From IMG/VR virus record IMGVR_UViG_2917865565_000006, positions 1-32,349 of that record: a stretch of 32,349 nt of DNA. One strand, written 5' to 3'. The notes under the pieces were generated by a model. That model was given only the letters and a program-made list of their open reading frames with translations. It had not been told where the DNA came from and ran no database searches. The position numbers were made by a program, and so were the translations under genes. Below, piece after piece: positions 1 through 13,698 of the stretch (its first letter is position 1; each line of letters opens with the position of its first letter). The DNA comes from a virus (lineage: Duplodnaviria; Heunggongvirae; Uroviricota; Caudoviricetes).

Positions 1-996
1 TTATGGACGCATTATGGACATTCCTGACACCGGGTTAAGAGTCACAGCATCTTGTAAGAAATCCGGTGCAAAGTGTGCGTAGGTCATAGTTTGCTGAATG
101 TCAGAATGACCCAGGATGCGCTGCAATGTGATTATGTTACCTCCATTCATTATAAAATGTGTGGCAAATGTATGCCTCAAAACATGCACTGCCTGTCCGT
201 CAGGTAAATCGGGTTTTACTTCCCTGAGAGCGTTGCGCACTTTGTAGTAACTGGCATTAAAAAGCCTGCCTGAATTTTTGGTCTTGATCCGTTTAATCAG
301 GTCCTGCGAAACGGGAATTGTCCTGCGCTTTCCGTTTTTAGTTTTCATAAACGTAACCATCTGGTTAATGATGTGTTCAGCTTTCAAATTAGACACTTCA
401 CTCCAGCGTCCACCAGTAGAAAGGCAGACCAGAGTTGCATTTAACTCATCACCATCAAGCATGGATAACAGCCGCGTAATCTCTTCACTGGACAAAAAAG
501 CCATTTCCGTAACAGCTTCACGTAACCGCTTAACCTCACGGAACGGGTTGTGAGAGTGATATTCACCGGCGTCAATTAACTTGGTGAACATCCCGCTCAT
601 TATTGCCAGATGCCGATTTACGCTGGCTGGTTTTAGACCATCGTTCATCATTACAACGCGATAATCAGTTATCGTTTTCTTTGTTAGCTGGTCCGCCCTG
701 GACACTCCCATCTCAGCAAATTTGGCGATTATTGTCGTCAAACGCCCTCGTTCAATATCTCCACGCTCATGTGATTTTCCGTGATATATCCACCATCTGC
801 CTAACAACTCTGTAAGAGTTCGGCGGTCGGCCGGCTTCTCCAACCACTCTTTGTTGTGGAAGTTAACCAGTACATGACGTTCGAATGCCTGAGCTTCACC
901 TTTAGTTTTAAATTTCCGCCTGATACGTTTTCCATCTGCACCCTGCGGTCTGACGTCCACTTCATAACGACCATCATCGAGCTTTTTAATAGACAT
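1..996 (-). CDS. int: Tyrosine integrase (P2 Int-like), 331 aa
   Basis: Minus-strand ORF at the left edge; C-terminal LRHTFAT and LGHSDIQQTMTYAH motifs match the tyrosine-recombinase catalytic signature; sits next to the C repressor as in P2. Confidence 0.9.
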   Translation of the reverse strand: MSIKKLDDGRYEVDVRPQGADGKRIRRKFKTKGEAQAFERHVLVNFHNKEWLEKPADRRTLTELLGRWWIYHGKSHERGDIERGRLTTIIAKFAEMGVSRADQLTKKTITDYRVVMMNDGLKPASVNRHLAIMSGMFTKLIDAGEYHSHNPFREVKRLREAVTEMAFLSSEEITRLLSMLDGDELNATLVCLSTGGRWSEVSNLKAEHIINQMVTFMKTKNGKRRTIPVSQDLIKRIKTKNSGRLFNASYYKVRNALREVKPDLPDGQAVHVLRHTFATHFIMNGGNIITLQRILGHSDIQQTMTYAHFAPDFLQDAVTLNPVSGMSIMRP

Positions 997-1859: not shown

Positions 1860-2457
1860 ATGAACACTATAGTAGGAAACACGGCAGCTAAAAAAAATTC
1901 AATCGTTGATCATCGAGCTGCGCACGAGACTTTTGTCGATTGAAGGGCAATCTAACGTATCAGCCATAGTTGATGACATAGAAATTGAAGCGAAAAAATT
2001 AGAAGAAGAAGTTAATTTTCTGGCTTTACCTGTAAGAGCTGCAGAAATTGAGACTTTGACGCATTTAATTAAATGTGGATGTGTCAGGCTGGAAAATAAC
2101 AAAAGAGATGAACGTAATGAGATTATAAATAATTTACAAGAGTCATTTGCGTTAATCAGCCAGAATCAACATGCCCCAACTAAAACAAAAAGAAGCAAAT
2201 CAAGTAAATTTGAGGTTTTGCGTTTTGGTGATCTTTCTATTATTGGTTGCGAGCTAACCCCATTACGCAACTATGTGACTCTATACTGTAGAGCTTGTTA
2301 TGAAAATGACAGGTTTATCGGTCATGTGTACTACGGAGTATCAAAGTTATCGGGTGACGAAAAAGGTTATAGCGAATTTGATGCGCTGAGTATTATTAAT
2401 GCTGTAGAAAAATATGCGCCAGGAATGCAAAAATACTCATGGCGCAAAGTAGATTGA
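1860..2457 (+). CDS. Hypothetical protein in AT-rich moron island; probably starts at ATG 1860 and is broken by a +1 frameshift in an A8 run (1890-1897); the ORF track shows only 1906-2457
   Basis: Strong RBS GAGGG 7 nt upstream of ATG 1860; a 27-codon ORF in frame 0 becomes continuous with the 183-aa ORF if one A is removed from the A8 run (MNTIVGNTAAKK then IQSLIIELRTRLL...). No recognisable domain. Confidence 0.45.
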
Positions 2458-4247: not shown

Positions 4248-4519
4248 GTATTCGTATCGAAATTGGCGAACGTTATGTCGTTACCAGTGACAGCTTTCAG
4301 TTTATTCTCCACGAGAAAAAGAGAGCGGAAAGCGGTAAAAACGCTGGTCAGGAATGGCTGGCGGTGGTTGGTTATTACCCGAAATTAAGCCAGCTCGTTT
4401 CCGGCCTGATGCATCACGATATTCTGACCGGAAACGCAAAATCTTTTGCTGATTTAAACGCGCAGGTTGAGCAACTCAGCAAGCGTTGTTCAGAGGCTTT
4501 TGGCTCATATGGCCGTTAA
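4244..4519 (+). CDS. Early-operon hypothetical protein (orf83-like, 91 aa)
   Basis: ORF overlapping the start of A; position matches P2 orf83. Confidence 0.6.
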   Translation: MSIRIEIGERYVVTSDSFQFILHEKKRAESGKNAGQEWLAVVGYYPKLSQLVSGLMHHDILTGNAKSFADLNAQVEQLSKRCSEAFGSYGR

Positions 4520-6791
4520 AGCCTCCGGGCGTTTTGTCCCTCCGTCAGCATTTGCCGCAGGCACCGGTAAGGCGTTTACCGGTGCTTATGCATGGAACGC
4601 GCCACGCGAGGCCGTCGGGCGCGAAAGACCCCTTACACGTGACGAGATGCGTCAGGTGCAAGGTGTTTTATCCACGATTAACCGCCTGCCTTACTTTTTG
4701 CGCTCGCTGTTTACTTCACGCTATGACTACATCCGGCGCAATAAAAGCCCGGTGCACGGGTTTTATTTCCTCACATCCACTTTTCAGCGTCGTTTATGGC
4801 CGCGCATTGAGCGTGTGAATCAGCGCCATGAAATGAACACCGACGCGTCGTTGCTGTTTCTGGCAGAGCGTGACCACTATGCGCGCCTGCCGGGAATGAA
4901 TGACAAGGAGCTGAAAAAGTTTGCTGCCCGTATCTCATCGCAGCTTTTCATGATGTATGAGGAACTCTGCGATGCCTGGGTGGATGCGCATGGCGAAAAA
5001 GAATCGCTGTTTACGGATGAGGCGCAGGCACATCTGTATGGTCATGTTGCTGGCGCTGCACGTGCTTTCAATATTTCCCCGCTTTACTGGAAAAAATACC
5101 GTAAAGGGCAGATGACCACGAGGCAGGCATATTCTGCTATTGCCCGCCTGTTTAACGATGAGTGGTGGACTCATCAGCTTAAAGGCCAGCGTATGCGCTG
5201 GCATGAGGCGTTACTGATTGCTGTCGGGGAGGTCAATAAAGACCGTTCTCCTTATGCCAGTAAACATGCCATTCGTGATGTGCGTGCGCGCCGCCAGGCA
5301 AATCTGGAATTTCTTAAATCGTGTGACCTCGAAAACAGGGAAACCGGCGAGCGCATCGACCTTATCAGTAAGGTGATGGGCAGTATTTCTAATCCTGAAA
5401 TTCGCCGGATGGAGCTGATGAACACCATCGCCGGTATTGAGCGTTACGCCGCTGCAGAGGGTGATGTGGGGATGTTTATCACGCTGACCGCGCCGTCAAA
5501 GTATCACCCGACACGTCAGGTCGGAAAAGGCGAAAGTAAAACCGTCCAGCTAAATCACGGCTGGAACGATGAGGCATTTAATCCAAAGGATGCGCAGCGT
5601 TATCTCTGCCATATCTGGAGCCTGATGCGCACGGCATTCAAGGATAATGATTTACAGGTCTACGGTTTGCGTGTCGTCGAGCCACACCACGACGGAACGC
5701 CGCACTGGCATATGATGCTTTTTTGTAATCCACGCCAGCGTAACCAGATTATTGAAATCATGCGTCGCTACGCGCTCAAAGAGGATGGCGACGAAAGAGG
5801 AGCTGCGCGAAACCGTTTTCAGGCAAAACACCTTAACCGGGGCGGTGCTGCGGGATATATCGCGAAATACATTTCAAAAAACATCGACGGCTATGCACTG
5901 GATGGTCAGCTCGATAACGATACCGGCAGGCCGCTGAAAGACACTGCCGCGGCTGTTACCGCATGGGCGTCAACGTGGCGTATTCCGCAATTTAAAACTG
6001 TTGGCCTGCCGACAATGGGGGCTTACCGTGAACTACGCAAATTACCTCGCGGCGTCAGCATTGCTGATGAGTTTGACGAACGCGTCGAGGCTGCACGCGC
6101 TGCCGCAGACAGTGGCGATTTTGCGCTGTATATCAGCGCGCAGGGTGGGGCAAATGTCCCGCGCGATTGTCAGACTGTCAGGGTCGCCCGTAGTCCGTCG
6201 GATGACGTTAACGAGTACGAGGAAGAAGTCGAGAGAGTGGTCGGCATTTACGCACCGCATCTCGGCGCACGTCATATTCATATCACCAGAACGACGGACT
6301 GGCGCATTGTTCCGAAAGTGCCGGTCGTTGAGCCTTTGACTTTAAAAAGCGGCATCGCCGCGCCTCGGAGTCCTGTCAATAACTGTGGAAAGCTCACCGG
6401 CGGTGATACTTCGTTACCGGCTCCCACACCGACTGAGCATGCTGCAGCGGTGTTAAATTTAATAGATGAAGGGATTCTAAGTTGGACCGAGCCAGGCATT
6501 ATGAAGGTACTTAGAGACTTATTGAGTAATGAACTGAAATGCAGTAATCGTTCACAGCAGAGCTTTACCCCTTTCATTGGTCGAAGCTACTTTCCTGCCC
6601 CATCCGCCCGGTTGACAAGGCAGGAGAGAAAGACTATCCCGAAAATTAAGGTTCTTCTTGCACAAAGTGACATTCAGGCTAGTTATTGGGAGCTTGAAGC
6701 TCTCGCTCGCGGAGCTGTTTTGGATTTTGGGCATAAGCGTTTTAAATTTGATAACGATATCGACTTTTTTGACAGACAGCGTGAGTGGTAG
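4509..6791 (+). CDS. A: Replication initiation endonuclease gpA (rolling-circle initiator), 760 aa from ATG 4509
   Basis: Large ORF at the end of the early operon; HWHMMLF metal-binding motif; length from 4509 is within one residue of the 761 aa I recall for P2 A. The ORF-track start at 4467 is probably an in-frame extension. Confidence 0.9.
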   Translation: MAVKASGRFVPPSAFAAGTGKAFTGAYAWNAPREAVGRERPLTRDEMRQVQGVLSTINRLPYFLRSLFTSRYDYIRRNKSPVHGFYFLTSTFQRRLWPRIERVNQRHEMNTDASLLFLAERDHYARLPGMNDKELKKFAARISSQLFMMYEELCDAWVDAHGEKESLFTDEAQAHLYGHVAGAARAFNISPLYWKKYRKGQMTTRQAYSAIARLFNDEWWTHQLKGQRMRWHEALLIAVGEVNKDRSPYASKHAIRDVRARRQANLEFLKSCDLENRETGERIDLISKVMGSISNPEIRRMELMNTIAGIERYAAAEGDVGMFITLTAPSKYHPTRQVGKGESKTVQLNHGWNDEAFNPKDAQRYLCHIWSLMRTAFKDNDLQVYGLRVVEPHHDGTPHWHMMLFCNPRQRNQIIEIMRRYALKEDGDERGAARNRFQAKHLNRGGAAGYIAKYISKNIDGYALDGQLDNDTGRPLKDTAAAVTAWASTWRIPQFKTVGLPTMGAYRELRKLPRGVSIADEFDERVEAARAAADSGDFALYISAQGGANVPRDCQTVRVARSPSDDVNEYEEEVERVVGIYAPHLGARHIHITRTTDWRIVPKVPVVEPLTLKSGIAAPRSPVNNCGKLTGGDTSLPAPTPTEHAAAVLNLIDEGILSWTEPGIMKVLRDLLSNELKCSNRSQQSFTPFIGRSYFPAPSARLTRQERKTIPKIKVLLAQSDIQASYWELEALARGAVLDFGHKRFKFDNDIDFFDRQREW

Positions 6792-6880
6792 TTGAAAAAA
6801 ACGGTCAAACGGGGTAACAATATGTTATTGTTGAGGAATTGTTTGTTATGGTTTAATTTTTATACACGGCAGAAAAGCAT

Positions 6881-8106
6881 ATGAGCATGGTTGAATGGAT
6901 AAGCCACGAGAAAAAAGATAGCCTGATACTATTTGTACATGGATTAAATGGTGGTTTGGAAACATGGAACTTTAATAAAGAAACTTCATTTCCAAAACTA
7001 TTAGCAGAAGATGAAGACATTAGCAATGTATTTGATATTGCATGTTTCAATTATTTCACCAAATTTACACAAACGTATGCTAAAAACGTCAGGATTATTG
7101 GCTCGTATTTTCTCTAAGAAAAATAAGTTAGAGAGAAATTTACCAACTGATGAAATAGCTGAGTTATTGTATACTGAGATTAGGGTAACGCTAAGTGATT
7201 ACTCTCGAATTATAATAATCGCCCATAGTATGGGGGGGTTAATATCAAAAAATCTAATTCTAAAAAAAGTTGAGCATGAGGAACAATCTAATATAATTGG
7301 ATTCATTTCGTTAGCAGTCCCTCACTTTGGTGCTAAATTAGCGAATATAACTTCAATGGTATCTTCAAATGCTCAGTTAGTAGATCTTGGATTGTTAAGT
7401 GAAGCGACTGATACATTGAATAGGCGCTGGATAAATTGTAGCAAAAAACTTCCTATCACTAGATATGTTTATGGTTCTCATGACACTATAGTTGATAAAA
7501 AAAAGTGCATTACCGATGGATAGTGAACGAAATAACTCAATTGCAGTTAATGAAGGGCATAGCTCAATTTGCAAGCCCGAAAACAGCTCGTCTACAGTGT
7601 TTGTTGCGGTAAAGCAATTTATTCAGCAGATAAATTTAGAAGCACCCAAGAAGATATGCGTTGAGCGTTTTTCTGATGAGAAACAATATGATAATGAGTA
7701 TTTCGTCTTAAAAATGATTGTCGCAGATATACATCAGGATATCGCTATGCATGCAAAGGAATATTATTATAATGCTGAGCTTGCGAGAAATATTTTTACG
7801 AGTGATTACGATAGGAAACTACTTGGTCATTTGTATTCTAAAATAAGGGAGATTTACCAGGAAGAGTATGAGCAATACATCGCGAATTCAATTTCCCCAG
7901 ATAAATTTATTGCTGCTGTTCATAGACGAATAGCCCAGGAGGATAAGTCGTCGTTAGATTCTCTTATAAAAAGTTTAGAAACGATACATAAGAAAGGAAT
8001 GTTGCATCAACTGGCTAACAAAAATGACAGGGATATTGTCTGGTCATCCGAAACCAGCGTAGAAACTTTGGAGCAATTACGGCGAGGTAATCATGAAGAA
8101 AAATAA
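6881..8106 (+). CDS. Alpha/beta-hydrolase (lipase/esterase-like) candidate defense effector with C-terminal helical domain; reading frame broken twice (three ORF-track pieces 6881-7117, 7011-7523, 7492-8106)
   Basis: Oxyanion-hole motif LILFVHGLNGG (about 6935-6955), nucleophile elbow AHSMGG (Ser codon 7227-7229) and candidate His in EGHSSICKP lie in three different frames; pieces join if one A is removed from the A5 run at 7082-7086 and from the A8 run at 7497-7504. AT-rich, unlike the backbone. Confidence 0.6.
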
Positions 8107-8606
8107 CTTGCCGTATATTCCTCTTGATGAAGAGTATAGCTTGAATTTTGCTATACTTGCCATTGCTATATCTATATTATCTCATAGCAAAAAAGGAGTG
8201 TTATCATTAGATATTAATAAAATACAAATTTTTTATGTATCTGATAAAAAACCCATCAAAAATAGATTATGCTCTTACAGTTTCGGGGAAAAAACCTGCT
8301 TGTGTCGAGTCCCAGTTAACTTATACAATAAAGAGTTTTTCATCAAATGTAGATATCTTATTCGACAATTCCAAAGTGAAATATCTTATAAAAATTATGT
8401 CATTGCGGGGATTGCTCTCAGCTGAGAAAAAAAATAATGAGAGTGTTAAATTATTTTTATCTGAAAAAGGTAAGGAATTTGCTAGCTCATTGACTGATGG
8501 ATATTTTAAAGAAATAAAACGACTATCCGAAGCATTGTTACCGCTACAAGCATTGCCTACATCTAAGTTAAACTCTGTTATAAATCAAGTCTTCAAGGAG
8601 AAATGA
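8093..8606 (+). CDS. Small middle component of the candidate three-gene system (about 170 aa), frame broken once (pieces 8093-8425 and 8235-8606)
   Basis: Start ATG 8093 with GAGGT RBS overlaps the hydrolase stop; stop overlaps the ATPase start (ATGATGA at 8603); two overlapping ORFs in different frames joinable at an A6 run (about 8246-8300). No recognisable domain. Confidence 0.5.
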
Positions 8607-10574
8607 TGAAATCATATCTCAATATCAATAGTTTGATTCTTGTTGGCGTTCGTAAAAACTACGTCACTACTTTTTATAAAGGTCTCAATGTTATCTACGG
8701 AGACTCTGACACAGGTAAGTCAAGCATTCTGGAGTTTATTAATTATCTTTTAGGTGCTAGCTCTATAGATTTAGCAGATGAAATAAAAACATCAGTAAAC
8801 TATGCTGCTCTTGAAGTAGTGATCAATGATACTGTATTCACAATCGTAAGAGATATCTATGATCATAAAAAAGCAATAGAAGTTTATCGTTGTAAGTTTG
8901 ATGATTTACATAAACATTTTCCGAAAAAATACGCTCCTAATTATAGCCCCTTATCAAATGTTGATGGTGTTTTTTCGGAGTTTTTACTTGATAGTCTTAA
9001 TTTTCCAAAGATTGAAATTAAGGTGTCTCCTTCTAAAGCTCATTCACAGATGCGCAGGTTAAGTTTTAGAAATATATATAAATTTGTTTATGTAAGTCAG
9101 GATGATATTGGTAGTAAATCTTTCTTGCGATTGGGTGATTGGTCCCGCTACGCATTTACGAAAGAAGTTTTTAAATACATGTTCAATGTGTTGGATGAAA
9201 GCATCGCCAGACTCCAAGGTGAAATATCTGCAAAAAGTAGTTTAGTAACTGAATTAAATAAGAAGTATCAGATAATATCTGAATTTCTTCGCGATACAGA
9301 CTATGAAACAATTGAATCAATTGATGATGAGATTAATAGGATAGATCTTGTTTTAGAAGAACTTGTTGCAGGTTTGTCTGCTCTCGATAAAAATATGAAA
9401 GCGGATTCCATGCAGTATACAGAATTGAAAGATGCTCACAATTTTATTTCGCTTAAATACAAAGAGTGCATATTAAATATTAGTGCGCTTGAGGATAAGA
9501 TTGATAAATATTCGCGGTTAAAAAATGACTATGATAATGATATTGAAAAACTCAAAGCGATTAAAACAGCAAATTCTCGCATTGGTGTATTGGATAAGGA
9601 AGTATTTTCCTGTCCAATCTGTGATAGCCACATTAAAATAGATGATTCTGATTTTCCATTTGAAATTTCATCAGAAAAAGATCTTAATGAAGAGTTGAAT
9701 TCACTTAGTCGACGTAGACGAAATATTAATGACATGATCTCAGAAATGTCATTTAAATTAAAAAAAGAATCAGGTTATAAAAAAAGAATTAGATGAACGA
9801 CTTGACGAGTTGAGAGAGTTGATTGACGAAGAAAGCCAGTCAATGATTACACCATTCTTGACTCAGAGAGATTTTTATATTAAAGAGATATCAAAAAATG
9901 AGAAAGTTAGGGAGCAGTTAGTAAAAGATTTGAAGGTTAGAAACCAGCAAGAGGAACTGCTTGAAAAGTATCAGGTACTGAGAAAAGATATTGAAGCATT
10001 AACTGAACGCTTGGAGGCGTTAAAGAAAAACGCACCTAGCATGGAGGGCATTTTACAAGGTTTAGGTGATAGATTTAGTCAGTATTTGAAGGGTATTAAT
10101 ATCAAAAACAGAACGGGGATAAAAATCTCTGAAAGCTATTACATTCCTGTTATAAGAGAAAAAGAATATTTTAAAATAACGTCCGGAGGTTTGAGAACTA
10201 TTTCTTCTATTGGGTATCTTTTGTCTATTCTTGATTATGCAATAGATCATAATGTTAACCATCCTTTACTTTTGATATTTGATACGGTTGGCAAATATTT
10301 AGGGAAACAGACCAAGGAAAAATATTCAAAAGAAACTCTTGCAGTCGAGGATGACCTTGAGGGAATGTCAGATCCGATGAAGTATCAAAATATTTATGAA
10401 CAACTATTGAATACAGTTCAAAAAGCAGAAAGAAAAAATGTTCCGTGCCAGATTATATTAGTTGATAATGATTTGCCTAATTCGTTTTCTACTGGTGAAC
10501 TTTCGAATATTATCGCTCATTATAGCTCGGTTGGTGAGGACGGTTTGCCTTTAGGTTTAATTGATGACCTTTAA
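8603..10574 (+). CDS. Rad50/SMC-like ABC ATPase with coiled coil and CxxC zinc hook (about 657 aa if joined); frame broken once (pieces 8603-9796 and 9810-10574)
   Basis: N-terminal Walker A GDSDTGKSS, Q-loop-like VYVSQDD, long charged helical region, CPICDSH (9611-9631), then in the next ORF the signature-like TSGGLRTIS and Walker B LLLIFD; frame 0 is open from 9762 and joins if one A is removed from the A7 run 9779-9785. Confidence 0.65.
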
Positions 10575-10890: not shown

Positions 10891-11880
10891 TCAGCCGTTG
10901 TCAGTGTCCAGTGAGTAGTTTTTAAAGCGGATGACCTCCTGACTGAGCCAGCCGTTTATTTCCCGAATCCTGTCCTGTAACGGGATAAGCTCATTGCGGA
11001 CAAAGACCTTTGCCACTTTCTCAATATCACCCAGCGACCCGACGTTCTCCGGCTTGCCCCCCATCAACTGAAAGGGGATGCGGTGCGCGTCCAGCAGGTC
11101 AGCGGCGCTGGCTTTTTTGATATTAAAAAAATCGTCCTTCGTTGCCACTTCACTGAGCGGGATAATTTTAATGCCGTCGGCTTTCCCCTGTGGGGCATAG
11201 AGAAACAGATTTTTAAAGTTATTGCGGCCTTTCGACTTAACCATGTTTTCGCGAAGCATTTCGATATCGTTGCGATCCTGCACGGCATCGGTGACGTACA
11301 TGATGTATCCGGCATGTGCGCCGTTTTCGTAATACTTGCGGCGGAACAGCGTGGCCGACTCATTCAGCCAGGCAGAGTTAAGGGCGCTGAGATATTCCGG
11401 CAGGCCGTACAGCTCCTGATTAATATCCGGCTCCAGCAGGTGAAACACTGAGCCGGGCGTGAAAGGTGTCGGCTCGTTGAAGGACGGCACCCACCAGTAA
11501 ACATCCTCCTCCACACCACGGCGGGTATATTTTGCCGGTGAGGTTTCCAGTCTGATGACCTTACCGGTGGTGCTGTATCGCTTTTCCAGAAACGCATTAC
11601 CGAACACCAGAAAATCCAGCACAAAGCGGCTGAAATCCTGTTGCGAAAGCCACGGATGCGGGATAAATGTCGAGGCCAGAATATTACGTTTGACGTAAAT
11701 CGGTGAGCTGTGATGCACGGCAGCACGCAGGCTTTTTGCCAGACCGGTAAAGCTGACCGGTGGCTCATACCATCTGCCGTTACTGATGCACTCGACGTAA
11801 TCCAGAATGTCACGGCGGTCGAGTACCGGCACCGGCTCACCAAAGGTGAATGCCTCCATTTTCGGGGCGCTGGCGGTCAT
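10891..11880 (-). CDS. Q: Portal protein gpQ (329 aa as called; P2 Q is about 344 aa from memory)
   Basis: Minus-strand ORF adjacent to cos and upstream of the large terminase, as in P2; N-terminus may be mis-called (see finding on the T8 run at 11881-11888). Confidence 0.85.
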   Translation of the reverse strand: MTASAPKMEAFTFGEPVPVLDRRDILDYVECISNGRWYEPPVSFTGLAKSLRAAVHHSSPIYVKRNILASTFIPHPWLSQQDFSRFVLDFLVFGNAFLEKRYSTTGKVIRLETSPAKYTRRGVEEDVYWWVPSFNEPTPFTPGSVFHLLEPDINQELYGLPEYLSALNSAWLNESATLFRRKYYENGAHAGYIMYVTDAVQDRNDIEMLRENMVKSKGRNNFKNLFLYAPQGKADGIKIIPLSEVATKDDFFNIKKASAADLLDAHRIPFQLMGGKPENVGSLGDIEKVAKVFVRNELIPLQDRIREINGWLSQEVIRFKNYSLDTDNG

Positions 11881-11925
11881 TTTTTTTTGCCGCAGGTCGC
11901 GGTGTTTTCCCTTTTTTCTTGCTCA

Positions 11926-13698
11926 TCAGTAAAACTCCAGAATGGTGGATGTCAGCGGGGTGCTGATACCGGCAGTGAGTGGCTCATTTAACAGGGCGTG
12001 CATGGTCGCCCAGGCGAGGTCGGCGTGGCTGGCTTCCTCGCTGCGGCTGGCCTCATAGGTGGCGCTGCGTCCGCTGCTGGTCATGGTCTTGCGGATAGCC
12101 ATAAACGAGCTGGTGATGTCGGTGGCGCTGACGTCATATTCCAGACAGCCACGACGGATAACGTCTTTTGCCTTGAGCACCATTGCGGTTTTCATTTCCG
12201 GCGTGTAGCGGATGTCGCGCGCGGCGGGATAGAACGAGCGCACGAGCTGGAACACGCCGACACCGAGGCCGGTGGCATCAATACCGATGTATTCGACGTT
12301 ATATTTTTCGGTGAGTTTGCGGATGGATTCCGCCTGGGTGGCAAAGTCCATGCCTTTCCACTGATGGCGCTCAAGTATTCTGAATTTGCCACCGGCCACC
12401 ACCGGCGGTGCCAGCACCACGCATCCGGCACTGTCGCCACGGTGTGACGGGTCGTAACCAATCCATACCGGGCGGGAGCCGAACGGATTCGCGGCAAACG
12501 GCGCATAGTCTTCCCATTCTTCCAGCGTGTCGACCATGCAGCGTTGCAGCTCCTCGAACGGGAATACCGACGCCTTGTCGTCAACAAATTCACACATGAA
12601 CAGGTTTTTAAAATCGTCGGCGCTGTTTTCACGTTTGAGCTGCTCAATGTCGAACAGCGTGCAGCCACCTTTCAGGGCGTCCTCAATGGTGACAATCTGC
12701 CGCCACTGGCCGTCCGCACAGAGAAGACCTCCGGCAAGGGCGTTATGACTGACGTCGATTTCCACGCGTTCGGCGGCGCTGGCGCGTCCCCGGTTGAACA
12801 GTTCACCCGACCAGAACGGGTAGGCGTCGTGCGCCAGCGTGGACGGGGTGGAGAAATAGGTCGAGCGCAGGTGACTCTGTGAGGCCATACCTGATGCCAC
12901 CTTACGCAGTACCTGAAAATTCGGGATCCAGAAAATCTCGTCGACGTACAGGTCGCCGTTATGGCTCTGTGCGGTGTTGGAGTTGGTGCCGAGAAAAATC
13001 AGTTTTGCGCCGTTATTGCCCAGGACAATCGGGTCACCGGTCAGGTCAACGTCAACCAGCCGGGCAAAGGCGATGATGTATTCACGGAACACATACGCCT
13101 GCGTTTTACTGGCCGACAGAAAAATCTGGTTATGACCGGTTTTCAGGGCGCGCAGCAGCGCCTCGCGGGAAAAATAAAACGTCGCGCCAATCTGGCGGGA
13201 TTTCAGGATATCGCGGATGCGGTGCTCAAGCCCGGCACGATACCAGTGCAACTGATAGTCGAAAGACTGCTCAAAGAAAATCTGCTCCAGCTTTTCGATG
13301 GCCTCGTCACTGAAAAAATTCTTTTTCGGTTTGCGCCGTCCGCCTTTGTTGCGGTTAGCGACGTTCGGATTAAGGTCTGCCTCGTTGCCGGTCTGACTGT
13401 AGCGGTTGACCCGTGCCAGTCGTTCAATCTGGCGTCCGAGCAGGTCAATTTCCTTGAAGTCACCACCGGTTTTCTGCGGTTTGATGATGAGCTGGGTCAG
13501 CCGCGCTTCCAGACTCATTTCGACACGGCTGATGGGGGCAACGCTGTCCCAGCCGTCGCGTTGTTTCCAGCTCTGCACCGTCGGGCGTTTCATCTGCAAC
13601 ATGGCGGCAATCTGCGGTACGGAAAACCCCTGCCAGTACAGCAGCGCCGCCTGACGACGCGGGTCGTGTAAAAGAGTGGTGTCTGTGGTGATGGTCAT
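11926..13698 (-). CDS. P: Terminase large (ATPase) subunit gpP, 590 aa from ATG at 13698
   Basis: Minus-strand ORF next to Q; start at MTITTDTT with GAGGT RBS gives 590 aa, equal to P2 P as I recall; N-terminal HTH-like region. Confidence 0.9.
   Translation of the reverse strand: MTITTDTTLLHDPRRQAALLYWQGFSVPQIAAMLQMKRPTVQSWKQRDGWDSVAPISRVEMSLEARLTQLIIKPQKTGGDFKEIDLLGRQIERLARVNRYSQTGNEADLNPNVANRNKGGRRKPKKNFFSDEAIEKLEQIFFEQSFDYQLHWYRAGLEHRIRDILKSRQIGATFYFSREALLRALKTGHNQIFLSASKTQAYVFREYIIAFARLVDVDLTGDPIVLGNNGAKLIFLGTNSNTAQSHNGDLYVDEIFWIPNFQVLRKVASGMASQSHLRSTYFSTPSTLAHDAYPFWSGELFNRGRASAAERVEIDVSHNALAGGLLCADGQWRQIVTIEDALKGGCTLFDIEQLKRENSADDFKNLFMCEFVDDKASVFPFEELQRCMVDTLEEWEDYAPFAANPFGSRPVWIGYDPSHRGDSAGCVVLAPPVVAGGKFRILERHQWKGMDFATQAESIRKLTEKYNVEYIGIDATGLGVGVFQLVRSFYPAARDIRYTPEMKTAMVLKAKDVIRRGCLEYDVSATDITSSFMAIRKTMTSSGRSATYEASRSEEASHADLAWATMHALLNEPLTAGISTPLTSTILEFY

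What the first reader, a model, noticed from the sequence alone, without database searches (positions are those of the whole stretch)
6881..8106. Serine-hydrolase effector with catalytic motifs distributed over three ORF-track fragments
The oxyanion-hole motif (HGLNGG), the GxSxG nucleophile elbow (AHSMGG, Ser at 7227-7229) and a candidate catalytic His (EGHSSICKP) sit in successive fragments in different frames, followed by a helical C-terminal region of about 190 aa. This is the pattern of a lipase/esterase-type effector fused to a coupling domain, which in defence systems usually mediates membrane or lipid damage during abortive infection.
Basis: partly seen in the sequence, partly recalled or inferred. 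Interest (0 to 1): 0.7.

Follow-up and report, generated by a model that had tools for sequence, protein, structure and literature searches.

The report
Lamassu lipase effector split by sequencing errors
The three fragments are one ordinary, already-catalogued anti-phage gene (the lipase-type LmuA effector of a Lamassu system carried by a P2-like prophage), and it looks broken only because the Ion Torrent draft assembly added an extra A to two runs of A's.

Summary
HGLNGG (6938-6955), AHSMGG (Ser 7227-7229) and EGHSSICKP (His 7558-7560) lie in three reading frames and are followed by a helical C-terminal domain.

The split is not biological. The window comes from Escherichia sp. E2562 (GCA_004745205.1), an Ion Torrent draft. 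Two other read-set assemblies of the same strain show no substitutions against the window over 16.8 kb and 11.9 kb. They differ from it only by six extra bases in A/T homopolymers, two of them in this gene (A-runs 7082-7086 and 7497-7504). Removing those bases gives a 407-aa protein that matches WP_138158482.1, from a second E2562 assembly, residue for residue.

The intact gene is lmuA of a three-gene short Lamassu (ABC-3C) system. LmuA has a DUF676/PGAP1-like alpha/beta-hydrolase domain plus CTD8. LmuC is an MC4 middle component. LmuB is an SMC/Rad50-like ATPase with a zinc hook. The operon sits in the P2 defence hotspot between gpA and the portal gene. Ser116, Asp201 and His226 are invariant in 56 homologues.

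Interest is low.

The parts
6881..8106 (+). lmuA: Lamassu effector, 407 aa once the two artefactual A's are removed. The N-terminal alpha/beta-hydrolase (lipase-like) domain spans about residues 1-250 and the ABC-3C CTD8 domain spans residues 265-389 (about 7675-8049).
   Evidence: Pfam CTD8 1.7e-35, DUF676 4e-09, PGAP1 3.6e-07. PADLOC LmuA PDLC03851 3.5e-108. The repaired protein equals WP_138158482.1 of E2562 exactly.
6938..6943 (+). His20-Gly21 of HGLNGG, the oxyanion-hole motif after strand beta-3.
   Evidence: H and G are invariant in 56 homologues.
7082..7086 (+). A5 run holding one artefactual A (true length A4); this is the first frame change in lmuA.
   Evidence: The extra base is absent from same-strain assemblies L028 and L030 and from all E. 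coli alleles.
7227..7229 (+). Catalytic nucleophile Ser116 (AHSMGG, a GxSxG elbow).
   Evidence: Invariant in 56 of 56 homologues. It aligns with the Ser of lipase 7x2p.
7482..7484 (+). Catalytic Asp201 (GSHDTIV).
   Evidence: Invariant in 56 of 56 homologues. It aligns with the acidic residue of 7x2p.
7497..7504 (+). A8 run holding one artefactual A (true length A7); this is the second frame change in lmuA, between the catalytic Asp and His.
7558..7560 (+). Catalytic His226 (NEGHSSICKP).
   Evidence: Invariant in 56 of 56 homologues. The equivalent His of a related Ec-Lipase LmuA (H215A) is needed for defence and toxicity (PMC12663957).
8093..8606 (+). lmuC: ABC-3C middle component 4, 170 aa when repaired. 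Its start overlaps the end of lmuA by 14 nt. The T6 run at 8229-8234 holds one artefactual T (true length T5).
   Evidence: Pfam MC4 5e-27. PADLOC LmuC 1.5e-52. The repaired protein equals WP_138158480.1. Indel shown.
8603..10574 (+). lmuB: SMC/Rad50-like ABC ATPase, 656 aa when repaired. Motifs are Walker A GDSDTGKS (33-40), zinc hook CPIC (337-340), signature SGG (527) and Walker B LLLIFD (about 554-559). The A7 run at 9779-9785 holds one artefactual A (true length A6).
   Evidence: PADLOC LmuB PDLC03862 1.5e-235. The repaired protein equals WP_240783147.1 / WP_138158478.1. Motifs; indel.
4509..6791 (+). P2 gpA replication endonuclease, the left border of the defence hotspot.
   Evidence: RefSeq annotation of homologues. 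Pfam Phage_GPA.
10891..11926 (-). P2 portal gene, the right border of the hotspot. The T9 run at 11880-11888 holds one artefactual base (true length T8), which cuts the called product from 344 aa to 329 aa.

Best explanation
Region 6881-8106 is a single gene, lmuA. It is the effector of a three-gene 'short' Lamassu (ABC-3C) anti-phage system, lmuA-lmuC-lmuB (6881-10574), carried as cargo in the gpA-portal defence hotspot of a P2-like prophage of Escherichia sp. E2562 (cryptic clade II). LmuA has an N-terminal DUF676/PGAP1-like alpha/beta-hydrolase domain (triad Ser116-Asp201-His226, oxyanion HG) and a C-terminal helical CTD8 domain.

The apparent split into three frames is an artefact. The deposited draft was made from Ion Torrent reads, and two A-runs in the gene were over-called by one base. 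Four more over-calls lie elsewhere in the window. In the organism the gene is intact.

The mechanism is inferred from solved Lamassu systems. An LmuB dimer together with LmuC holds a monomer of LmuA through its CTD. When LmuB senses DNA ends or phage replication intermediates, ATP-driven head engagement releases LmuA. The freed CTD oligomerises and this switches on the hydrolase. The hydrolase probably cleaves an ester substrate, most likely membrane phospholipid, and kills the infected cell (abortive infection).

Shown here: gene identity, domain architecture, conservation of the triad, and the artefactual nature of the frameshifts. Inferred only: sequestration and release, oligomerisation, and the lipid substrate.
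For: Artefact:
- The window is contained in GCA_004745205.1 contig PDIJ01000007.1.
- That assembly was made from single-end Ion Torrent reads at about 50x with MIRA/SPAdes (PMC6639607).
- Logan assemblies L028 (SRR8835204) and L030 (SRR6148323) show 0 substitutions against the window over 16,796 and 11,887 columns. They differ only by six and five single-base gaps, and every gap is an extra base in an A/T homopolymer of the window.
- The proteins I predicted by deleting one base per run are found, residue for residue, in a second NCBI assembly of strain E2562 (FEK43_07285 and neighbours) and in Logan. This holds for LmuA 407 aa, LmuC 170 aa, LmuB 655/656 aa and portal 344 aa.
- Against the nearest E. 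coli alleles there are 20 synonymous and 9 non-synonymous differences, my estimate dN/dS about 0.13. This means selection was maintained, not decay.

Identity:
- 96 complete E. coli genomes carry the intact three-gene locus at about 99% identity, annotated as ABC-three component system protein / MC4 / AAA ATPase.
- Pfam and PADLOC hits support the assignment.
- H, G, S, D and H are invariant in 56 homologues of 43-92% identity.
- The AF2 hydrolase core has pLDDT of about 85-95, and the Foldseek top hits are esterases, thioesterases and monoacylglycerol lipases.
- A profile of the family hits lipase 7x2p with Ser, Asp and His aligned.

Mechanism (literature):
- LmuA is sequestered as a monomer and is activated after release by oligomerisation (PMC12663957; 10.1101/2025.03.14.643221).
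- Lipase LmuAs with CTD8/CTD9 are predicted to form cyclic oligomers.
- The E. coli Ec-Lipase Lamassu defends against Lambda-vir, and H215A abolishes both defence and toxicity.
Against: - I could not read the raw reads, so the homopolymer lengths rest on assemblies rather than on read counts.
- The link between SRR6148323 / SRR8835204 and strain E2562 is inferred from 100% nucleotide identity and from protein names. It was not taken from run metadata.
- Two of the over-called runs are short (A4, T5), which is less typical of Ion Torrent consensus errors than A7-A8 runs.
- The AF2 model of the CTD has low confidence (pLDDT below 50 in much of residues 256-405), and I could not measure the triad geometry.
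- The substrate of the hydrolase is unknown.
- The validated Ec-Lipase system has different residue numbering (H215, K42 against H226, K39 here) and may belong to another subfamily.
Confidence: 0.93

Rival explanations
1. The Lamassu operon is truly pseudogenised in E2562. Real slippage mutations in homopolymers inactivated lmuA (twice), lmuC and lmuB, perhaps under selection against a toxic abortive-infection system.
For: Four of the six extra bases fall within the 3.7-kb island. Lamassu over-expression is toxic. Two of the affected runs are short (A4, T5).
Against: A second NCBI assembly of the same strain and two Logan assemblies, all with zero substitutions against the window, carry every gene intact. 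The source assembly is Ion Torrent. The other two extra bases hit an early-region ORF and the essential portal gene. dN/dS of about 0.13 shows no relaxed selection. Defence pseudogenes are reported to be rare in P2 hotspots (10.64898/2026.02.27.708500). The island simply has the highest density of A/T runs.
Confidence: 0.04
2. The system is phase-variable, or uses programmed frameshifting. On this reading the A/T tracts are contingency switches that turn the defence system on and off, and different assemblies sampled different states.
For: The A7 tract at 7497 appears as A6, A7 or A8 in several public assemblies. The operon holds several A7-A8 tracts.
Against: The variant assemblies show the hallmarks of error. 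L005 equals the O157 allele (1 substitution) but has +1 in four different A7/A8 tracts, one of them intergenic. L002 has -1 in A7 and A8 tracts. The other variant contigs are short, and at least one is very low coverage. The locus is intact in the O157:H7 genome checked, and all 30 listed complete-genome hits carry the three intact-gene product names. Tracts of 4-8 bases are short for contingency loci. There is no slippery site or stimulatory structure, and three genes would each need an independent event.
Confidence: 0.02
3. The three fragments are independent small genes.
For: Gene callers and RefSeq annotated them separately in this assembly (78, 170 and 196 aa).
Against: Together they are collinear with one 407-aa protein family of more than 370 clusters. 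The triad is split across the fragments, so none could be catalytic alone. Those exact 78-aa and 170-aa fragment sequences are on record only in this one assembly, though similar breaks occur in a few short public contigs.
Confidence: 0.005

Closest known systems
Short Lamassu / ABC-3C systems with a lipase-type LmuA (CTD8) and an MC4 LmuC (Krishnan et al. 2020 classification; Millman et al. 2022; PADLOC models LmuA PDLC03851, LmuC PDLC03869, LmuB PDLC03862)
   Same: The gene order is lmuA-lmuC-lmuB with overlapping stops and starts. The domain architecture is the same: alpha/beta hydrolase + CTD8, MC4, and a roughly 650-aa SMC-like ATPase with a CxxC zinc hook. All three proteins match the models over their full length.
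   Different: Nothing of substance differs. The window copy carries assembly errors. No experiment on this exact allele was found: searches for WP_000063136, WP_001325828, WP_000739990 and WP_138158482 gave no papers.
Lamassu Ec-Lipase from E. coli (Haudiquet et al., PNAS 2025, PMC12663957)
   Same: It is a short Lamassu from E. coli with a lipase effector and a zinc-hook LmuB. The catalytic His and the Walker A Lys are required for defence against Lambda-vir. Toxicity on over-expression depends on the lipase His.
   Different: The residue numbers differ (H215 and K42 there; H226 and K39 here). In 56 homologues of this family the His sits at positions 222-248 and never at 215. Ec-Lipase is therefore probably a different subfamily or allele.
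Vibrio cholerae DdmABC and Salmonella LmuACB (Cap4-nuclease Lamassu; PDB 9NY5, 9NYG, 9NXX)
   Same: The three-component logic is shared: an SMC-like sensor, a middle component, and an effector whose CTD is sequestered and then oligomerises.
   Different: The effector there is a nuclease with CTD7/MC3, and the V. cholerae clade lacks the zinc hook. Sequence similarity is too low for phmmer to find any PDB chain. Whether oligomerisation activates a lipase domain is still open.
DUF676 / PGAP1-like alpha/beta-hydrolase lipases (for example the putative lipase PDB 7x2p)
   Same: The fold, the HG oxyanion motif, the GxSxG elbow, and the Ser-Asp-His order and spacing are shared.
   Different: This protein is fused to a CTD8 regulatory domain. 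It has no signal peptide or membrane anchor that I noticed. Its substrate is unknown.

Membership tests
Lamassu / ABC-3C defence system | LmuB: an SMC/Rad50-like ABC ATPase with Walker A, signature and Walker B motifs separated by a coiled coil | tested here: met
   PADLOC LmuB PDLC03862 1.5e-235, full length. Motifs GDSDTGKS 33-40, SGG 527, LLLIFD about 554-559 and zinc hook CPIC 337-340. Weak NCBIfam SMC/Rad50 coiled-coil hits.
Lamassu / ABC-3C defence system | LmuC: a small middle component encoded between effector and ATPase | tested here: met
   Pfam MC4 PF20290 5e-27 (cut-off 28.1 bits, score 95.3). PADLOC LmuC 1.5e-52.
Lamassu / ABC-3C defence system | LmuA: a variable N-terminal effector domain fused to a conserved ABC-3C C-terminal domain | tested here: met
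   Pfam CTD8 PF20284 1.7e-35 at residues 265-389. PADLOC LmuA PDLC03851 3.5e-108 over residues 3-406.
Lamassu / ABC-3C defence system | The three genes form one co-oriented operon located in a defence context | tested here: met
   The genes overlap (8093-8106 and 8603-8606). The locus lies between P2 gpA and the portal gene, where relatives carry unrelated defence cargo. This hotspot is described in 10.64898/2026.02.27.708500.
Lamassu / ABC-3C defence system | Protection against phage that depends on the ATPase and on the effector active site | not testable with these tools
   Shown only for relatives (Millman et al. 2022; Ec-Lipase).
Alpha/beta-hydrolase serine esterase/lipase (DUF676 / PGAP1-like) | Alpha/beta-hydrolase fold | tested here: met
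   In the AF2 model the core strands and helices have pLDDT of about 85-95. 806 PDB matches have E <= 0.001, and the top 50 listed are alpha/beta hydrolases. Pfam DUF676, PGAP1 and Abhydrolase_1 all score above their cut-offs.
Alpha/beta-hydrolase serine esterase/lipase (DUF676 / PGAP1-like) | GxSxG nucleophile elbow and a Ser-Asp-His triad in canonical order, conserved across the family | tested here: met
   AHSMGG, GSHDTIV and EGHSSI are present. S, D and H are invariant in 56 of 56 homologues and align to 7x2p.
Alpha/beta-hydrolase serine esterase/lipase (DUF676 / PGAP1-like) | Triad residues within hydrogen-bonding geometry in the 3D structure | not tested
Only the secondary-structure order (Ser after the strand at 107-113, Asp after the strand at 190-196, His after the strand at 217-220) fits the canonical positions.
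Alpha/beta-hydrolase serine esterase/lipase (DUF676 / PGAP1-like) | Lipase or esterase activity on a defined substrate | not testable with these tools
   No biochemical data were found for this protein.
Real pseudogene / phase-variable locus | The frameshifts are reproduced in independent sequence data from the same strain | tested here: not met
   Three other assemblies of the same strain carry intact genes and differ from the window only at the six homopolymers.

The most novel reading that the evidence does not exclude
The A/T homopolymers inside this P2-borne Lamassu operon might be true hypermutable tracts. The culture would then hold a mixed population of ON and OFF variants of a toxic abortive-infection system, and the Ion Torrent consensus would have captured OFF alleles that were really present rather than base-calling errors.
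Probability: 0.02. Interest if true: 0.5.

Novelty: already known. Interest (0 to 1): 0.08.

Why it matters
The value here is mainly as a quality-control lesson. A defence effector that looked like a multi-frame or decaying gene is an intact member of a catalogued Lamassu subfamily, and the 'frameshifts' are Ion Torrent homopolymer over-calls. AT-rich defence islands are full of A/T runs and will collect such errors more than the surrounding GC-richer prophage. Scans for 'broken' or 'recoded' defence genes should therefore check the sequencing platform and look for other assemblies of the same strain first.

Biologically, the locus adds one more example of a lipase-type Lamassu in the P2 gpA-portal hotspot. 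This one is in a cryptic clade II Escherichia and is about 99% identical to the copy in E. coli O157:H7 prophages. How oligomerisation would activate a lipase effector, and what it cleaves, remain open questions for the family. This window adds nothing special towards answering them.

Tried and rejected
- Looking for the frameshifted LmuB fragment in public contigs found nothing under that exact start. Fragment look-ups by other starts succeeded.
- Searching isolated phage genomes for the cargo found only the flanking P2 sequence; none of the 50,697 phage records carries this Lamassu.
- I first considered real decay because four of five known indels fell in the island and the structural region showed almost none. 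I dropped this once the platform and the same-strain assemblies were found.
- Contigs sharing the 196-aa C-terminal fragment looked at first like independent support for a recurrent frameshift at the A7 tract. Alignment showed they are O157-type alleles with error-like indels in several long tracts, or short contigs, at least one of very low coverage.
The terminase was too widespread to reach the second assembly. The strain-specific gpA protein worked.
- phmmer of LmuA and LmuB against PDB sequences found nothing. Only the family profile reached a lipase.
- The sequence of the published Ec-Lipase system could not be obtained because no supplements are held, so identity with it is unresolved.
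- The promoter and terminator scan gave nothing above the shuffled expectation.

Full report
**What is in the sequence**

There are three overlapping ORF fragments on the + strand, each in a different frame.
- 6881-7117 (78 aa) carries HGLNGG.
- 7011-7523 (170 aa) carries AHSMGG, with the Ser codon at 7227-7229, and also GSHDTIV.
- 7492-8106 (204 aa) carries EGHSSICKP, followed by about 190 residues that are predicted helical.

The two genes downstream are also split: 8093-8425 / 8235-8606 and 8603-9796 / 9810-10574. The region has 32-34% G+C inside a 55% G+C P2-like prophage. It lies between the replication endonuclease gpA (4509-6791) and the portal gene (10891-11926, minus strand).

**The fragments are one gene**

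Megablast against complete E. coli genomes finds the 4.1-kb region at about 99% identity in 96 genomes. In O157:H7 TW14359 it is annotated as three intact genes:
- a 407-aa 'ABC-three component system protein';
- a 170-aa 'middle component 4';
- a 656-aa AAA ATPase.

Alignment shows that the window differs from these alleles by about 1% substitutions plus four single extra bases, each inside an A or T run. Two of these, in A-runs 7082-7086 and 7497-7504, create the three 'fragments'. Deleting one base per run restores proteins that differ from the O157 proteins at only 3, 2 and 5 residues.

**The frameshifts are sequencing artefacts**

- Exact-sequence look-ups identify the window's source as Escherichia sp. 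E2562, assembly GCA_004745205.1, contig PDIJ01000007.1. The window is contained in it with 100% identity.
- The genome announcement states that this assembly was made from single-end Ion Torrent reads at about 50x with MIRA and SPAdes (PMC6639607). Miscalled homopolymer length is the characteristic error of that platform; I state this from general knowledge.
- I looked up the proteins predicted after removing one base per run. All are present, residue for residue, under the name Escherichia sp. E2562 but with different locus tags (FEK43_...), on a 423-kb contig, and in Logan re-assemblies. They are LmuA 407 aa (WP_138158482.1), LmuC 170 aa (WP_138158480.1), LmuB 655/656 aa (WP_138158478.1 / WP_240783147.1) and a 344-aa portal (WP_138158476.1).
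- Using the strain-specific gpA protein as a handle, I retrieved two Logan contigs, L028 from SRR8835204 and L030 from SRR6148323.
- These contigs align to the window over 16,796 and 11,887 columns with zero substitutions and six and five gaps.
- Every gap is an extra base in a window homopolymer: A8 vs A7 at 1890-1897, A5 vs A4 at 7082-7086, A8 vs A7 at 7497-7504, T6 vs T5 at 8229-8234, A7 vs A6 at 9779-9785, and T9 vs T8 at 11880-11888.

Six differences that are all +1 over-calls in A/T runs, with no substitution in 16.8 kb of the same strain, is the signature of a base-calling or consensus error, not of evolution.

Three further observations agree with this.
- Against the nearest intact alleles there are 20 synonymous and 9 non-synonymous differences. 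I estimate dN/dS at about 0.13, so there is no sign of relaxed selection.
- The same tracts are mis-sized in other public assemblies in an error-like way. A Logan contig of the O157 allele has +1 in four A7/A8 tracts, and one complete genome has -1 in two.
- A recent survey reports that defence pseudogenes are rare in P2 hotspots (10.64898/2026.02.27.708500).

**What the gene is**

Pfam places residues 265-389 in CTD8 of ABC-3C systems (1.7e-35). It places the N-terminal half in DUF676, PGAP1 and Abhydrolase_1, all above their cut-offs. The neighbours are MC4 (5e-27) and an SMC_N/AAA_23-like ATPase.

PADLOC models match all three proteins over their full length:
- LmuA at 3.5e-108;
- LmuC at 1.5e-52;
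- LmuB at 1.5e-235.

LmuB has Walker A GDSDTGKS, a CPIC zinc hook in the middle of its coiled coil, the SGG signature and a Walker B. At about 650 aa it is a 'short' Lamassu in the terms of PMC12663957.

A database search finds 373 clusters of full-length homologues across Gammaproteobacteria, all about 400 aa with the same two domains. In an alignment of 56 of them (43-92% identity to the first sequence), the HG dipeptide, Ser116, Asp201 and His226 (407-aa numbering) are invariant.

An AlphaFold2 model built from that alignment gives a confident alpha/beta-hydrolase core (pLDDT about 85-95) and a poorly defined CTD. The top 50 listed Foldseek matches in the PDB are esterases, thioesterases, monoacylglycerol lipases and related alpha/beta hydrolases. 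The family profile reaches the putative lipase 7x2p with Ser, Asp and His aligned. I could not measure the triad geometry because model coordinates are not exposed.

**How it most likely works**

This part is inferred. Structures of nuclease-type Lamassu complexes show that two LmuB protomers and LmuC sequester one LmuA through its C-terminal domain. DNA ends or phage replication origins trigger release. The freed CTD then oligomerises to switch on the effector (PMC12663957; 10.1101/2025.03.14.643221).

The second paper notes that lipase-type LmuAs of the CTD8 and CTD9 families are predicted to form dimers and larger cyclic oligomers. It says the link to activation is unresolved.

A short Lamassu from E. 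coli with a lipase effector and a zinc hook ('Ec-Lipase') protects against Lambda-vir. It needs the Walker A Lys and the lipase His, and it is toxic when over-expressed unless the His is mutated. By analogy, this LmuA is a sequestered hydrolase that kills the infected cell after release. Membrane phospholipid is the most likely target, but no substrate has been shown.

**Comparison and novelty**

The system meets every sequence-level criterion of the Lamassu/ABC-3C family and of the lipase-CTD8/MC4 subfamily. It is annotated as such in RefSeq, and it sits in the known P2 gpA-portal hotspot, where relatives carry unrelated cargo. It is probably not the very system tested as Ec-Lipase, because the catalytic His is at 222-248 in all 56 homologues and never at 215. 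I could not obtain that sequence. No paper mentions the accessions of this allele.

**Verdict**

The feature that made the region look unusual, a catalytic triad spread over three frames, does not exist in the organism. The gene belongs to a known family. Interest is low.

Noticed in passing
window 1890-1897: This A8 run is A7 in the same-strain assemblies L028 and L030. The extra base cuts an early-region ORF of unknown function from 198 aa (true start near 1860) to the 183-aa ORF at 1906-2457.
   Followed up: partly
window 11880-11888 (portal gene, minus strand): This T9 run is T8 in L028. The extra base removes the first 15 codons, so the portal is called as 329 aa instead of 344 aa. The 329-aa form was annotated as the portal protein in the deposited assembly.
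   Followed up: yes
window 8229-8234 and 9779-9785: lmuC and lmuB are each split by one artefactual homopolymer base. The whole Lamassu operon therefore looks broken in this assembly, although it is intact in the strain.
   Followed up: yes
L005 (Logan ERR2740768) and L002 (NZ_AP042515.1): Other public assemblies of this locus carry error-like indels in the same A7/A8 tracts. L005 equals the O157 allele (1 substitution) but has four +1 insertions. The complete genome NZ_AP042515 has two -1 deletions, and its MC4 gene is annotated at 132 aa.
   Followed up: partly
L022-L027, between the portal and gpA genes: P2-like prophages with an identical terminase protein carry completely different cargo at this hotspot. 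Examples are GmrSD-like + HEPN + DNA methylase; an AAA_13 ATPase; an AAA_21/AAA_15 ATPase; ParB-like + methylase + ASCH; and a HipA-like/HIRAN protein with an Rv2179c-like exonuclease. L003 (E. coli EC556) has three unannotated hypothetical genes there.
   Followed up: no
window 1-996 and L028 1-5500: In E2562 the prophage integrase abuts a radical-SAM gene and an amino-acid permease. The closest structural-gene relative in E. coli EC556 sits next to yegQ/yegP. The same phage backbone therefore uses different attachment sites or integrase modules.
   Followed up: no
window 6456-6800: The last ~350 bases of gpA do not match the prophages that best match the rest of the left arm (95.7% identity up to 6456). 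They match the O157-type prophages that carry this Lamassu instead. This suggests the recombination junction of the cargo swap lies inside the 3' end of gpA.
   Followed up: no
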